Shown: positions 9,001-15,000 of the stretch, piece after piece | Layout of the letters: each line of letters starts with the position of its first letter | Position numbering within the stretch: position 1 is the first letter of the stretch | DNA from: a virus | Lineage: Duplodnaviria > Heunggongvirae > Uroviricota > Caudoviricetes | Length of the DNA: 21,415 bases | Virus record (IMG/VR): IMGVR_UViG_2617270975_000009 | Coordinates: 1 to 21,415 of that record | Reading direction: 5' to 3' (one strand) | Position numbers: made by a program

Positions 9001-12000
9001 ATGAATTGCTATTACAGGCCAGAGAGTCTGATAATCCTGAGCAGGCCGAGATCCACAATTTCCTGATGCTGGATATTGAACGCCGGGTTTACGACCTGAG
9101 CCGCATCAACGACAGATTGCAGGCTATTAACTGACCCGCATGTATTCACCTGATATTGCGTTGTCAGCGCCGCCAGTATCGCGCATAACAGCGCACTGAC
9201 CGGGTAAACCGTAGCGCACGACCGTTGCGTTAGTATCACCGCCGCGCCGTATCTGGCGCGATTCATACACTGTCACCCGCTCAAGCAGTCCACCAGCAAC
9301 CATGCTTTCCAGTGTGCGCCGGGTTGATTCGAGCTGGTGACGCTTATCGAACGACACCATGCCATGAAGCAGGTAGGCCACACCCGACACATCGAACGGC
9401 GGCGCACCAATCTCACCAGTCACCCATTCGAGGTTATCCGGTTCAAAGTAGCTAAGTATCTCTTTTTTGCGACTGGTCATTCTCATGGCTGGCTGATTCC
9501 TTATTGTGGGATAGCACTATCATACAATAAGTGGGTTAAAGGGAGAGCGTTACCGCCTGATATGCTGTATGAATAACAACCAAATTTCAGGTGCGGAAAA
9601 AGATATGGGGGTACTTTTGGGGGTATCTATAAAAAATGAACAATAAAAAAGGCAACAAAAACAAAGCTTATCGCCTATGTGTATTGTTCCTATTATCGGC
9701 ACCATTCAAACATCTCCCCAAGTCTACTAAAGTCTTTCAAAACCCCTTATAATCCGTGTATTAAAGCCCCGTTCGTCTTTTGACGTCTACTAAAGTCCCT
9801 CAAAATCTACGGTCAGATGGGGGTACTTATGGGGGTATTTGCTGTTCGGTTTAGTGGAGGTACCCCCAAGTGAAACTCAATGCCCGTCAAATAGACACAG
9901 CCAAGCCAAAAGAGAAGGCTTACAAGCTGGCCGATGGTGGCGGTTTGTATCTCTTGGTAAAACCTAATGGAGGTAAATACTGGCGACTTAAATATCGTGT
10001 AGCTGGTAAAGAGAAGCTATTGGCACTAGGTGTGTATCCTGAGGTTACTCTAGCCGATGCTCGGGCAAAACGTGAAGATGCGAAAAGAGGTATCGCTGGT
10101 GGTATCGATCCGATGGAAGCGAAACGAGAGGAAAAGATTGCCCGGGAAACGCAGTTAAACAACACCTTCAAAGATATTGCCCTTGAGTGGCACAGCAGCA
10201 AATTAAAAAAATGGTCTGCTGGTTATGCTTCAGACATCCTCGAAGCCTTCAACAAAGATGTGTTCCCTTACATTGGCAAAAAACCAATCGCCGAAATCAA
10301 ACCACTTGAACTTCTGAATGTGCTGCGGCGCATCGAGGGGCGCGGTGCTACAGAAAAAGCCAAAAAAGTGAGGCAGCGGTGCGGGGAAGTTTTCCGCTAT
10401 GCAATAGTCACTGGTCGCGCAGAGTATAACCCTGCACCAGACCTTACTAGCGCGATGCAAGGCCATGAATCTAATCATTACCCTTTCCTTACAGCTAAAG
10501 AATTACCTGATTTTTTCAAGGCATTGTCCAGTTACTCAGGAAGCGCATTGGTTGTTATGGCGGCTCGTCTACTGATTATCACCGGCTTGCGGACTGGCGA
10601 ACTACGTGGCGCATTATGGGATGAAATTGATTTCAACAAGGCTATCTGGGAGATACCCGCTTCACGTATGAAAATGCGGCGGCCTCATATTGTGCCATTG
10701 TCTGATCAGGCTCTTTCGCTTATTGGGAAGATTAGAGAAATAACAGGCAATTACCCTCTTATGTTTCCCGGGCGCAATGATCCAAGGAAAACAATGAGTG
10801 AGGCCAGCATAAACCAAGTGTTTAAGCGCATTGGCTACGCTGGACGTGTAACTGGTCATGGGTTCCGGCACACTATGAGCACGATTTTGCATGAGCAGGG
10901 CTATAACACCGCGTGGATAGAAACGCAGCTCGCTCACGTTGATAAGAACTCAATTCGTGGCACATACAACCATGCGCAATATCTGGATGGAAGGCGGGAG
11001 ATGCTTCAATGGTATGCCGACTATATGGATGCGCTGGAGAAGGAGGAGAACGTTGTTCATGGTTCGTTTGGGAAACGAGCTTAACTGTATGAATAGACCG
11101 TGTTAAGCAATGGTAGTAGACTTATGTAGACGAACAAAGAATAGGCTATGTCTAGGCTGATCCCCGAAAACCCGTACACCCCTACGGGCTGGCATAGCCG
11201 TCAGAATTAGGGGCGCGGGGTGGCGTATGGTGAGAGCCAAAAAACAAGATTTAGCATGGTTTGATATTAGTAATTATGAATTTTTAAATGATTTAACCTT
11301 GCCGGACTTGATTCAAGAATTAGAGTGGCGCGATTTTTTATTGCGTCATGCAAAAGATGACACTGCTATATTCAAAGAAGAGTACGATATAAAATATGAA
11401 AGGATTTTTTCGGGCGATCCTAACCTAACCATTCTCAATGAAGAAGAGGAAGAGGTCGAAGAATTTATTCGCAAAGTAAATGATGAAGCCCCATCATTAA
11501 GAAATGAGTACGATGATCTTCCCTCATTATCTTCAGCTATGGGGGTTAGTCCAGTAACATTTTCAGAGCTGGCCATGTACTCTTTCTCATCGATAGATCA
11601 AGGCTTTTTTAAAAGAGACGAAGAGGATTGCTACCTCAAGGCAAACGCTATGCTTGCGAGTGTTACTGGAAACCTAAGTAATTGTTCCCCTAACATCATA
11701 CTCGTTTCTATAGATTTAGATGACGCCACTGATGACGAAATTATTACCAGCCTGACTCACCTTCTACCTCTATGGCGAAAAGAGTTAAAAGTACCAGAGA
11801 GAGAGCATGTCGCTCAGAAAAGGATTGGATTAAAGACCCTTCAGAAGTTGATATCTAATAGAGTGATACCTATTGTTGATCTGCTGATTTGGGGTGAGAA
11901 GTCAGGTAAGGAAGTGAGCAATCCGATGATTTCTGCCTTGGTTTTTAGTGATGATCCGAAAGATACGCAGGCTATTAAGGAATCAATAAAGCCTTTTGCA

Positions 12001-15000
12001 CTTGAATCTATAAGCGAGAGATACACCCGCTTGCTTCAGCTTTATGTAAACAAAGACAGAGAAATGAGCTTGATAAAAATATCTGATTTAATGAGTAGAG
12101 ATTTATAGCAAGCAAAATCCTACGTAAACGTTTTAAGTAAATTTCGCGATTTCCGCTTTGAATACGCTACTGTGTATTTCAAAGCGGATAATCTTCTCAA
12201 AAAAATATTTTATTTTTATCCGCTATCACCCATTCACCGGTTTGTTTAATCTCCTTTCTGTCTACTGATGTCCATTAAAGAAGATGACAGAATATAGGAG
12301 TAAACATGTCTCAATCATTTATTCGTCTTTCTGAGGTTCAACGCCGTACTGGTTACAGCAAAGCGTGGATTTATCGGCTCATCAAAGAACAGCGATTCCC
12401 TCAATCTGTAAAGATTGGAAGCCGATCAATTGCGTTTATTGAAAGTGAAATTGAAGAATGGATTAATCAGCGCATCGCTGAGTCGCGTGGCGAGGTAGCG
12501 TAATGAATAAGAAAAACCGCCCATTACAGGCGGCTAATTCAGATATTCGCGTATCTGATGTTACGCCCCTTACAAAATCCCTTCAAGCACCAAAGCGCAC
12601 ACCGAAAAAGCATCGTGCCAGAGTCTATATGCTGCGTACTGGTATAGAGGGATGGACAGAAAATGACATTCTTCGCTACTGCCGTCTGTCTTCTGGTCGT
12701 AACTATGCAACAGAGTTAGAACGCCAGCTTGGAATCACTCTGGAGCGTATCGACGAAAAGAATCCTGATGGTATCGGAACACACCTTCGCTACCGTTTCT
12801 CCTGCCGTGGTGATGTTCTGAAAGTGATCACTCATATTAACCATCTTGCGAACATAAATGATCACAACGGACTTTCTCAGCAGGAAATTGCCGACATTCT
12901 GAAACTCTACCCGGACGCGTTTAACGCCGCTTAACGGAGACTGAAAATGAACATCGAAAAAAGCAGATTAATTTCTGAGGCCGCCCCTCATCTGAACGCC
13001 TCTCTGAGCACAATTAACGGTAATGAATTTGCCGCAATTGTCCCGGTTATTCCTGGTCATATCGGTGGGCGTGAAACCAATATTGTTAGCGCAAAAGCGT
13101 TACACAAAGCGTTGGGCGTGGGAAAAGACTTCTCTACATGGATCACTGATCGCATCTCTGAATATGACTTCACCATTGGGCACGATTACTCAGTCCATAA
13201 AACTATTTCCCCAAATTTGGGGAAAAGCCCGAATGGCGTGGCTTACAGAAAGATTAAGCAGTCTGGCAGACCCGGCAAAGACTATCTGTTAAGTGTCGGA
13301 ATGGCGAAAGAACTGGCAATGATCGAACGCAATGATCAGGGTCGCGCTATCCGCCGTTATTTCATCCAGTGCGAGGAAGAATTACAGCGTAGCGTTCCTG
13401 AAATCGCCGCCCGCTATCGTCGCCAGCTAAAAGCCCGTATCAGTGCCGCAAACAACTTTAAGCCAATGTGCGATGCGCTGAATATGGCCCGTGCCGAGCA
13501 GGGGAAAACGACGCAGCAACACCACTACACAAACGAGAGCAATATGATTTCTCGTATCGTTCTTGGTGGGCTAACTGCTAAGCAGTGGGCGCGGATAAAT
13601 GGCTATTCTGGCGAACCTCGCGACCATATGAACGCAGAACAACTTGAGCACCTCTCATATCTCGAAAGCACCAATATCACGTTAATTGATATGGGCATGG
13701 AATATGAGCAGCGCAAAGGAGAACTCCCCCGCCTGTCGCAACGCTGGCTCGCTAAGCGTCTGGAGGTGGTCCATGTTTAAGCCGACAGGAACACCACAAC
13801 CTCAAAAACGCTACAAGGATGCCCACGGAGCACTCGTTACTGTCGAAAGCGTGTCTCACAACCGAGTGACGTTTTATCGCGACGGGTATCAATCGCCATG
13901 CGTACAACCGCTGGCGCGCTTCATGAAGGAGTTCGCGGAGGTTAACAAATGCTAACCGTCCAGAAGAAGATATTTTCACTGGCTGGTATGTCGCCAAAAT
14001 CCAGCAATATGACAGCAAAGTCTGGCATTAATACAGCAGATACAAGCAAAGTTTATCATTTTCTGGTGGTGGGAGCGGATGCCTTAACTATGTCAGAAAT
14101 TACGGTCGATGGTGTTAGCGTTGAGAAGGTCGGCGGCTGCGCCAGAGAATTTCTGGTCGTAGATGGCTTTCTCTGCTCGCGTAGTGACTCCACAAAAACC
14201 TTCGTCCACACGCGCGACGTTAACGAAATGAGCGCGATGTATTGTGCATCTGGTGCTTCCAATAGTGAGTTTTCGGAGTCCATAAAAAAGAGCTTGCCGT
14301 TATGCGGCAACACGGTTTATGGTTATAAGGCACCTCATAAAACGGGTGCCGGGTTTCGCAGCCCGGAAATGTACGAGGCGACACATGACGCGCCGAGCGT
14401 CTTTTTTTGTGCCGTTAGCCAGACTCACACTTTTTTCAGTGATGCGGTTATAATCCGCGTCGCTTGCAAAATTATGGTGGGCTGGACAGGGCAGCCGAAA
14501 GGCTGGCCGGTTTCCTTGTACGCCGGTACTGCGAACTCTGTTCAGTCCACCACCAGCGAGTTTCGCAGCTCCGGTGGTGGGAAGAACTCCCAGTACAAGG
14601 AGGCTGCCACATGCTGGCTACTACCCCTACCCAAAAACCGCAATTTATCTGGATTATCGCCGCAGTTCGCCGCGATTGCCCGACAATTACCGCCAAAATT
14701 CATCATATTGCTGCCGAGTCTGAACGCGATGCTCGCCGTTCTCTGGTGCGCGATCACATCTGCTTTTTTGCTGGTCGTATCCGCATGGAGGTGGCACATG
14801 ATTAAAACCTACGATGTGCATATGGATCCCCTCGAACGCACAAGCCAGATCATCACACTGACAGAAGTGATTAACGACATTCTGGTGAGCAACTCTCCCT
14901 CACGAGACGAAAGACTGAAGGCGTTACTCGCGATATTGGATCTCGCCGTTCGTGACGTTCATTTCCTGCTGGAAGGTGGCGAAATGCCAGGAAAAACGGG

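What the first reader, a model, noticed from the sequence alone, without database searches (positions are those of the whole stretch)
11227..12108. Orphan AT-rich acidic cargo gene between int and alpA
A single 293 aa gene that is much more AT-rich than its neighbours, with an acidic patch and a downstream hairpin, sits in the variable slot just after the integrase of a satellite-type element. Such int-adjacent variable slots in satellites are known to carry anti-phage or anti-defence cargo. I recognise no family, so it is a candidate single-gene defence (or DNA-mimic anti-restriction) protein.
Basis: inference. Interest (0 to 1): 0.7.

Follow-up and report, generated by a model that had tools for sequence, protein, structure and literature searches.

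The report
DUF6387 cargo gene in PICI slot
The gene is real and sits in a truly variable cargo slot of a phage satellite, but it is not an orphan: it belongs to the uncharacterised DUF6387 family, is one of at least 28 unrelated genes that take turns behind the same structured RNA leader between the integrase and alpA, and nothing yet shows that it is a defence gene.

Summary
ORF 11227-12108 (+) encodes 293 aa. Its GC is 0.38, against 0.48 for int and 0.50 for alpA-to-primase. It has an acidic N-terminal half and a strong hairpin downstream.

The element is an EcCIMP1-like phage-inducible chromosomal island (PICI), caught as a circular contig with an attP junction and an IS3-family insertion.

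The gene is not an orphan. It matches Pfam DUF6387 (132 bits). The identical gene is annotated in 86 of 5426 complete E. coli genomes, and the family has about 500 clusters at 50% identity.

New here: Rfam int-alpA RNA (RF02996) lies at 11145-11212, 14 nt before the start codon. In 219 loci fetched with this leader, int is always upstream (125/125) and alpA is usually downstream (131/150). The ORF between them falls into 28 unrelated AT-rich families; DUF6387 is 11% of them.

Closely related elements of the kind whose prototype, EcCIMP1, is a working satellite have no gene in the slot. The gene is therefore accessory cargo.

No PADLOC, PDB or viral-structure match was found. The AlphaFold model (pLDDT 84) shows a soluble helical protein with weak winged-helix similarity. 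Acidity is not family-wide, which argues against DNA mimicry.

Function remains unknown. I favour a binding-type conflict function; an Int/AlpA-switch regulator is the main rival.

The parts
9688..9714 (.). attP-type junction. It contains the core TCCTATTATC and is the 27-bp overlap between the right and left ends of the integrated element.
   Evidence: Window 9688-20139 and 424-9714 match the two halves of the element in strain 6409 in permuted order. The core sequence is the one reported for EcCIMP1 (PMC11773190).
9722..9797 (+). Two direct GTCTACTAAAGTC repeats 63 bp apart, upstream of int. They are candidate Int-arm or AlpA binding sites.
   Evidence: Motif scan. The pair is conserved in related loci whether or not they carry DUF6387.
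9870..11084 (+). P4-type tyrosine integrase.
   Evidence: Pfam Arm-DNA-bind_3, Phage_int_M and Phage_integrase.
11109..11131 (-). Two tandem GTCTAC-type repeats on the opposite strand, in the int-to-slot intergenic region.
   Evidence: They are conserved across genera in alignment A3.
11145..11212 (+). int-alpA RNA motif (Rfam RF02996), a structured leader that ends 14 nt before the start codon.
   Evidence: cmscan gives 46.7 bits against a gathering score of 35.8, E = 4e-8. The same motif in the same register precedes DUF6387 or unrelated ORFs in other loci. 8 of 21 pairs show compensatory changes.
11227..12108 (+). The finding: a DUF6387-family protein of 293 aa.
   Evidence: Pfam PF19924 at 132 bits. 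Identical in 86 E. coli genomes. AlphaFold model pLDDT 83.9. dN/dS 0.06-0.17.
12148..12193 (+). Strong hairpin after the stop codon. It is terminator-like and separates the slot gene from alpA.
   Evidence: Fold z = -5.3. A hairpin sits at this position in all relatives, with different sequences; it is a canonical terminator in L007, L008, L017 and L020.
12194..12305 (+). AT-rich alpA upstream region with a GTCTACTGATGTC motif at 12260. It is exchanged together with the slot gene.
   Evidence: Homology to elements with an empty slot resumes only at 12315. Motif seen.
12306..12503 (+). alpA, the master activator / RDF-type regulator of the satellite.
   Evidence: Pfam Phage_AlpA E = 8.9e-20. 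Its role in EcCIMP1 and EcCICFT073 is described in PMC11773190 and PMC6092414.

Best explanation
Shown: the gene is the DUF6387 allele of a single-ORF cargo cassette that lies between int and alpA in EcCIMP1-like PICIs and related integrative elements.

The cassette has three parts: a conserved structured leader (the Rfam int-alpA RNA) in fixed register with the start codon, an AT-rich ORF, and a terminator-like hairpin. It is exchanged as a block. The breakpoints fall in the last codons of int and the first codons of alpA.

The cassette is dispensable for the satellite life cycle.

Inferred: the gene is transcribed from the int side while the island is resident or newly arrived. It is insulated from the helper-induced alpA promoter.

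The product is a soluble, non-enzymatic, mostly helical protein with a winged-helix-like module. It therefore most likely works by binding a partner (protein or DNA) rather than by catalysis.

I judge the most likely role to be a conflict function that benefits the satellite or its host: interference with or immunity against incoming phages or rival mobile elements, in the manner of other single-protein PICI immunity genes.
For: Identity: Pfam DUF6387. The family has 497 clusters.

Element: an EcCIMP1-like PICI in circular form.

Accessory status:
- In 416 E. coli records the best match to window 9600-13000 is 95-99% identical. The two sampled (L014, L015) keep int and alpA but have no slot gene.
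- The prototype EcCIMP1, which has only a tiny ORF (EcCIMP1_002) there, still excises and is transduced (PMC11773190).

Cassette structure:
- RF02996 sits 13-16 nt before the start codon of DUF6387 and of the unrelated 265-aa ORF; the same aligned leader also precedes the 239-aa ORF.
- A hairpin follows the ORF in all relatives.
- Breakpoints lie at 11060 and 12315.

Hypervariability: 154 slot proteins fall into 28 clusters. Slot ORFs have lower GC than the 1 kb upstream in 151 of 154 cases. Int is upstream in 125/125 loci and alpA downstream in 131/150.

Unrelated alleles: hhalign probability is at most 1.5% against the eight largest other families.

Functional gene: dN/dS 0.06-0.17.

Precedent: PICIs carry immune systems at their 5' ends, and Tai is a PICI-borne single-gene immune system that neither PADLOC nor DefenseFinder recognised (PMC11364771).
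Against: - There is no functional evidence of any kind.
- None of DUF6387, 40 of its relatives, or 10 other slot families matches a PADLOC model. Established satellite defence hotspots are, from my own knowledge, rich in recognisable systems.
- DUF6387 is found only next to alpA, in PICIs, capsid-forming-PICI-like elements, EARL islands and prophage-like elements. This holds down to about 25% identity. Defence genes normally also occur in other contexts.
- In EARL islands it is treated as a conserved backbone marker (PMC10763509).
- The winged-helix similarity would fit a regulator as well.
Confidence: 0.35

Rival explanations
1. Regulator of the Int/AlpA switch. DUF6387 would be a DNA-binding protein, or an anti-activator that binds AlpA. 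It would keep the island quiescent or set which helper induces it. This would make it a positional analogue of the SaPI Stl repressor, a function described as missing in Gram-negative PICIs.
For: - It is immediately upstream of alpA on the same strand in every locus examined, across at least seven deep lineages and several element types.
- It is a conserved boundary gene next to the RDF in EARL islands (PMC10763509).
- In the Klebsiella capsid-forming-PICI-like element its start overlaps the int stop.
- The alpA promoter region is exchanged together with the gene.
- An acidic protein could bind basic AlpA (inference).
Against: - EcCIMP1 works and is helper-inducible without the gene, and related E. 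coli elements of that kind have an empty slot.
- 27 other unrelated protein families use the same slot and leader. That is hard to reconcile with one specific regulatory job.
- No Pfam HTH family is recurrently hit in 40 members.
Confidence: 0.25
2. Anti-defence or establishment factor. The gene would be co-expressed with int when the satellite DNA enters a new cell, and would neutralise a host defence. The first reader's DNA-mimic anti-restriction idea is a special case of this.
For: - The gene lies downstream of int, on the int side of the terminator-like hairpin that separates it from alpA.
- Hypervariable families of unknown ORFs in a fixed expression cassette resemble anti-defence loci (own knowledge).
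- This member is acidic: pI 4.6, net charge -20, with an EEEEE patch.
Against: - Family pI ranges from 4.5 to 9.4, median 5.5. DNA mimicry is therefore not a family property.
- At 293 aa the protein is large for a mimic.
Confidence: 0.15
3. Host-adaptive or neutral passenger with no role in genetic conflict or in the element's regulation.
For: No function is detectable. The gene is dispensable in related elements.
Against: - Strong purifying selection.
- A dedicated conserved leader and terminator.
- The family is confined to integrative mobile elements.
Confidence: 0.1

Closest known systems
Pfam PF19924 (DUF6387). Members include ORF28 of ICEKp258.2 and, probably, SEN1999 of Salmonella ROD21 (EARL islands).
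   Same: Full-length HMM match at 132 bits. Same size class (260-330 aa). Same position directly upstream of an AlpA-family gene.
   Different: Only about 25-30% identity to the EARL-type members. In EARL islands the gene lies at the island end opposite int and lacks a detectable int-alpA RNA; here it follows int. The assignment of SEN1999 is by position only and was not checked by sequence. No member has a known function.
EcCIMP1, a PICI of E. coli MP1 whose helper is the P22-like phage Kapi1 (PMC11773190).
   Same: Same att core, the same tRNA-Thr site between proA and yagU in integrated copies, and the same gene set: int, alpA, antA, ash, primase, DUF2824/ejection-protein genes, PerC. Size is about 19.7-20 kb.
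   Different: EcCIMP1 has only a small ORF (EcCIMP1_002) in the int-alpA slot. This element has the int-alpA RNA plus DUF6387 and a different alpA promoter region. I did not align the MP1 sequence itself; the comparison is with closely related E. coli elements that have an empty slot (L014, L015).
PICI 5'-end accessory regions that carry immune systems, and Tai single-gene immunity (PMC11364771).
   Same: An accessory gene in a satellite hotspot next to int. A single ORF that PADLOC does not recognise.
   Different: Anti-phage activity is not shown here. Tai sits next to pri and also occurs in phage moron loci, whereas DUF6387 occurs only upstream of alpA.
Rfam RF02996 int-alpA RNA (typed by Rfam as an sRNA gene).
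   Same: Match above the gathering score, lying between int and alpA.
   Different: Here and in 14 aligned loci it behaves as a 5' leader in fixed register with a variable ORF. In this window it lacks the U-run seen in the Rfam consensus.
Stl master repressors of SaPIs.
   Same: A variable gene between int and the excision/activation genes. Unrelated alleles occur in related islands.
   Different: It is co-directional with alpA and separated from it by a terminator. It is absent from a functional relative. No clear HTH is present.
DNA-mimic anti-restriction proteins (ArdA, Ocr).
   Same: This member is acidic and has a glutamate run.
   Different: No sequence or fold match. Nearly twice the size. 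Acidity is not conserved in the family.

Membership tests
Pfam DUF6387 (PF19924) | hmmscan score above the curated gathering cut-off, over most of the model | tested here: met
   132 bits against a cut-off of 28.9; residues 5-269 match model positions 6-256 of 258.
Pfam DUF6387 (PF19924) | Shares the family's invariant residues | tested here: met
   W11, Y17 and R184 are invariant, and F12, R35, D169, D218, W222 and T253 are at least 90% conserved, in a 40-sequence alignment with 24% mean column identity.
EcCIMP1-like PICI | att core TCCTATTATC, and integration at tRNA-Thr between proA and yagU | tested here: met
   The core is at window 9688. Integrated copies lie next to proA/tRNA-Thr and the pao/yagU side. 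The core and site are those reported in PMC11773190.
EcCIMP1-like PICI | int, alpA and primase backbone without capsid or lysis genes | tested here: met
   Pfam hits for int, AlpA, AntA, Ash and Toprim/DUF927 primase. Annotation of the 99.9%-identical element is.
EcCIMP1-like PICI | Helper-phage-dependent excision and transfer | not testable with these tools
   The circular contig with an attP junction is compatible with excision, but tandem copies are not excluded.
Known anti-phage defence systems (PADLOC-DB 2.0) | Match to a defence-protein HMM | tested here: not met
   No hit at E <= 1 for the protein. No recurrent hit in 40 family members.
DNA-mimic anti-restriction proteins (ArdA/Ocr type) | Sequence or fold similarity to a known mimic | tested here: not met
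DNA-mimic anti-restriction proteins (ArdA/Ocr type) | Strong negative charge conserved across homologues | tested here: not met
   pI is 4.62 here, but the family median is 5.5 and the range is 4.5-9.4.
Rfam RF02996 int-alpA RNA (the leader of the gene) | Covariance-model score at or above the gathering score | tested here: met
   46.7 bits against 35.8. Compensatory changes in 8 of 21 pairs.
Intrinsic terminator (downstream hairpin) | G+C-rich stem directly followed by a T-run | tested here: inconclusive
   The stem is strong, but the consensus scan does not call it a terminator. Relatives have canonical terminators at the same place.
Stl-like master repressor | Recognisable HTH DNA-binding domain | tested here: inconclusive
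Stl-like master repressor | Present in all functional islands of the lineage | tested here: not met
   The slot is empty in related E. coli elements (L014, L015) and holds only a tiny ORF in the functional EcCIMP1.

The most novel reading that the evidence does not exclude
The int-alpA RNA is not a free-standing sRNA. It is the conserved leader of a previously unrecognised hypervariable cassette site in PICI-like satellites and related islands. Dozens of unrelated, AT-rich, single-ORF proteins of unknown function take turns at this site, and DUF6387 is the only one with a Pfam entry. These proteins would form a new reservoir of single-protein immunity, counter-immunity or helper-sensing functions. 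The leader would control their expression.
Probability: 0.35. Interest if true: 0.75.

Novelty: new member of a known kind. Interest (0 to 1): 0.5.

Why it matters
Satellite hotspots have been a productive place to find new phage-defence and counter-defence genes.

This slot has a fixed, recognisable frame: int, then a structured RNA, then the variable ORF, then a terminator, then alpA. Its contents can therefore be harvested systematically. At least 28 unknown protein families were recovered here from only 219 loci.

Testing DUF6387 and a few of its slot-mates would do three things:
- assign a function to a Pfam DUF of about 500 clusters that marks the ends of the clinically relevant EARL islands (ROD21, ICEKp258.2);
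- give a function to the orphan Rfam motif int-alpA;
- test whether Gram-negative PICIs have an Stl-like regulator after all.

If the gene turns out to be a passenger, the finding is ordinary.

Tried and rejected
Structure and sequence searches that gave nothing useful:
- A profile search of PDB sequences gave no hit at E <= 10.
- Foldseek against viral structures (BFVD) gave nothing below E = 1.
- The afdb50 library was not available.
- NCBIfam gave no hit. PHROGs gave only an unknown-function family.

Searches for more distant relatives:
- A profile-based homologue search with distant representatives added only one protein.
- The search for related loci with the diverse alignment failed because no stretch was conserved enough.
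- IMG/VR scans with four distant family members found nothing.

Tests of specific ideas:
- I asked whether the alternative slot proteins are diverged DUF6387. hhalign probabilities were at most 1.5%, so I rejected this.
- The DNA-mimic reading is rejected as a family-level property.
- Correlated divergence of DUF6387 with int or alpA (Spearman 0.50 and 0.58) is no stronger than between int and alpA (0.67). It does not discriminate between the explanations.
- The GTCTAC repeats occur with and without DUF6387, so they are not specific operators for it.

One all-against-all hhalign script timed out.
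Full report
**1. The observation**

The ORF at 11227-12108 (+) is present and encodes 293 aa. Its GC content is 0.380. That compares with 0.476 for int, 0.434 for alpA, 0.499 for the alpA-to-primase block and 0.483 for the whole window.

The protein has pI 4.62 and net charge -20, with the run NEEEEEVEE at residues 71-79. The negative charge lies in residues 1-200; the C-terminal third is neutral. No transmembrane segment is predicted.

A stem of about 20 bp lies at 12148-12193 (z = -5.3 against shuffles). The simple scan does not call it a terminator because the T-run is not adjacent. A hairpin of different sequence sits at the same place in every relative, and it is a canonical terminator in L007, L008, L017 and L020.

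The neighbours are a P4-type tyrosine integrase (9870-11084) and an AlpA-family gene (12306-12503). Downstream follow a 143-aa ORF, AntA, Ash and a Toprim/DUF927 primase.

**2. The element**

Window 9688-20139 and window 424-9714 match the two halves of a 19.7-kb element of E. coli strain 6409 at 99.9% identity, but in permuted order. The 27-bp overlap at 9688-9714 contains TCCTATTATC. That is the att core reported for the PICI EcCIMP1. EcCIMP1 is 19,963 bp long, is integrated at tRNA-Thr between proA and yagU, and is mobilised by the P22-like phage Kapi1 (PMC11773190).

The first 391 bases of the window are identical to its last 391. The window is therefore a circular contig of about 21.0 kb. 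It consists of the excised (or tandem) EcCIMP1-like PICI plus a 1.3-kb IS3-family insertion. The insertion is identified by its transposase domains and an ALIL pseudoknot.

**3. Not an orphan**

The protein matches Pfam PF19924 (DUF6387) over its full length, at 132 bits against a cut-off of 28.9. The identical gene is annotated as 'DUF6387 family protein' in 86 of 5426 complete E. coli genomes.

A profile search of 1.84 billion representative proteins finds 497 clusters at E <= 1e-3. Nearly all are single-domain proteins of 260-330 aa.

The family is essentially absent from phage records: there is one hit, and it is a Salmonella contig. It is rare on plasmids: five hits. Of the three I examined, one is a small circular capsid-forming-PICI-like element and two are island modules inserted in large replicons.

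Two papers list the gene, without any study of it, next to AlpA in ICEKp258.2 and in a Serratia island. [quoted passage not shown]

**4. Synteny**

In every locus where downstream sequence exists, DUF6387 is followed by alpA on the same strand. In most loci it is preceded by int. This holds in Escherichia, Yersinia, Providencia, Yokenella, Salmonella, Morganella, Pantoea, Klebsiella and Photobacterium. It holds down to about 25% protein identity.

The downstream modules differ widely. They include primase-type satellites, a capsid-forming-PICI-like 17-kb circle, EARL-type modules with H-NS, and a lambdoid early region.

The gene is under purifying selection (dN/dS 0.06-0.17). It is about 10 GC points below int and alpA in 13 of 14 loci. 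AT-richness is therefore a property of the family, not a sign of recent arrival.

**5. The slot is nevertheless variable**

In 416 E. coli records the best match to window 9600-13000 is 95-99% identical. The two I sampled keep int and alpA but have nothing annotated in the slot: 428 bp in L015 and 652 bp in L014. Homology to the window breaks at 11060 and resumes at 12315. These points are inside the last codons of int and the first codons of alpA.

Other E. coli elements carry, in the same slot, a DUF6387 only 28% identical, an unrelated 265-aa ORF, or an unrelated 239-aa ORF.

EcCIMP1 itself has only a small ORF there, yet it excises, circularises and is transduced. The gene is therefore accessory to the satellite cycle.

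**6. The leader RNA**

The 130 bp upstream of the start codon is more conserved across genera than the coding sequence. It contains Rfam RF02996 'int-alpA RNA' at 11145-11212, at 46.7 bits against a gathering score of 35.8.

The same motif ends 13-16 nt before the start codon of DUF6387 in seven other loci, and before the 265-aa ORF in L016. In an alignment of 14 leaders, which also includes the one before the 239-aa ORF in L054, 8 of 21 predicted pairs show compensatory changes. The GAGGTGG ribosome-binding site and the ATG keep a fixed register.

Only one paper in the library mentions the motif, and only as a genome annotation.

**7. What lies behind the leader elsewhere**

An exact-pattern scan for the 5' part of the leader returned 219 loci from IMG/VR and metagenomes. 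Results were as follows:
- Int lies directly upstream in 125 of the 125 loci where that could be checked.
- AlpA lies directly downstream of the slot ORF in 131 of 150 loci.
- Slot ORFs have mean GC 0.394, against 0.480 for the 1 kb upstream. They are lower in 151 of 154 cases.
- The 154 complete slot proteins fall into 28 clusters.
- DUF6387 accounts for 17 of the 154 proteins (11%).

Ten representatives of the other clusters have no Pfam match at or above the curated cut-off and no PADLOC match below E = 0.01. Profile-profile comparison with DUF6387 gives probabilities of at most 1.5%.

Its contents are uniformly uncharacterised, and none is a recognisable defence system.

**8. The protein**

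There is no PDB sequence match and no viral-structure match. There is no PADLOC match for the protein or for 40 relatives, and no second Pfam family is hit recurrently.

Only W11, Y17 and R184 are invariant across the family. That does not suggest an enzyme.

Family pI ranges from 4.5 to 9.4, so acidity is a feature of this member only.

**9. Interpretation**

These points are shown:
- the identity of the gene and of the element;
- the cassette structure (leader, ORF, hairpin);
- exchange of the cassette as a block;
- dispensability of the gene for the satellite;
- purifying selection on the gene.

These points are inferred:
- expression from the int side, insulated from alpA;
- action by binding rather than catalysis.

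I rank the possible roles as follows:
- A conflict function that protects the resident satellite or its host: 0.35.
- A regulator of the Int/AlpA switch: 0.25. This is favoured by the strict alpA synteny, the status of the gene as an EARL backbone marker and the winged-helix hits. It is disfavoured by the empty slot in functional relatives and by the 27 unrelated slot-mates.
- An anti-defence or establishment factor, including the DNA-mimic idea: 0.15.
- A passenger: 0.1.

None of these is tested.

**10. Novelty and score**

The gene is a catalogued member of a known but uncharacterised family, in a recently characterised kind of satellite, at a kind of site (the PICI 5' accessory region) already known to carry cargo (PMC11364771). 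I therefore rate it 'new member of a known kind'.

The part I did not find described in the papers I searched is the following: the Rfam int-alpA RNA is the fixed leader of a hypervariable single-ORF cassette site with at least 28 unknown families. That makes the locus a practical entry point for experiments, and it keeps the interest moderate (0.5) despite the lack of any functional evidence.

Noticed in passing
window 1-391 and 21025-21415; 9688-9714: The window ends are 100% identical over 391 bp, and the element's right and left ends are joined at an attP-type junction. The window is therefore a circular contig of an excised or tandem PICI, not an integrated copy.
   Followed up: yes
window 20140-21415 plus 1-423: An IS3-family insertion sequence of about 1.3 kb (orfA/orfB, ALIL frameshift pseudoknot, 96% identical to the IS1203 copy in strain E2863) is inserted between the primase gene and the DUF2824 gene. 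It is absent from the otherwise 99.9%-identical element of strain 6409.
   Followed up: partly
window 14330-14407 and 14470-14557: Rfam isrK (69 bits) and C4 antisense RNA (81 bits) lie on the + strand inside the ORF annotated as an Ash-family protein (13949-15016). The same pair is seen in L014, L015, L020 and L030. This may be an RNA-based immunity or antirepressor control module like that of P1/P7/P4.
   Followed up: no
window 9722, 9785, 12260 (+); 11121, 11131 (-): GTCTACTNA-type repeats occur upstream of int (a pair 63 bp apart, conserved in relatives with and without DUF6387), in the int-to-slot spacer (inverted) and at about -46 of alpA. They are candidate AlpA or Int-arm binding sites.
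   Followed up: partly
window 786-5444: The satellite carries homologues of P22-type DNA-ejection/injection proteins (a DUF2824 protein, then ORFs of 225, 473 and 701 aa). This matches EcCIMP1_017-019, which the EcCIMP1 authors suspect of a packaging role. In strain 6409 the last of these is a frameshifted pseudogene.
   Followed up: no
window 7613-7677 and 19754-19817: A 65-bp inverted repeat (94% identity) links the region just after the primase gene with a site in the right half of the element.
   Followed up: no
L001 (E. coli O111 strain E2863): In the O111 strain E2863 the block int, DUF6387, alpA, 143-aa ORF, antA is 99.9% identical to the window. It is then joined to a different, CP4-type island (DUF932, antirestriction, YeeU/CbtA), with IS1203 nearby. 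The module is shared between different elements.
   Followed up: partly
L031 3923-4879: One IMG/VR copy of the same DUF6387 gene (98% identity) is broken into three ORF fragments. The gene can therefore decay.
   Followed up: no
L012 5959-5962 and L036-L050: In a Klebsiella 17-kb circular capsid-forming-PICI-like element and its IMG/VR relatives, the DUF6387 start codon overlaps the int stop codon by 4 bp, and no int-alpA RNA is detected. That arrangement suggests translational coupling with int.
   Followed up: no
L059-L262, slot ORFs: By eye, several otherwise unrelated slot proteins start with similar short N-terminal motifs, for example ..FISLRELI....DIA.W.. or Y.T..QAA.LL....D. This hints at a shared N-terminal module with variable C-termini. 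It was not tested statistically.
   Followed up: no
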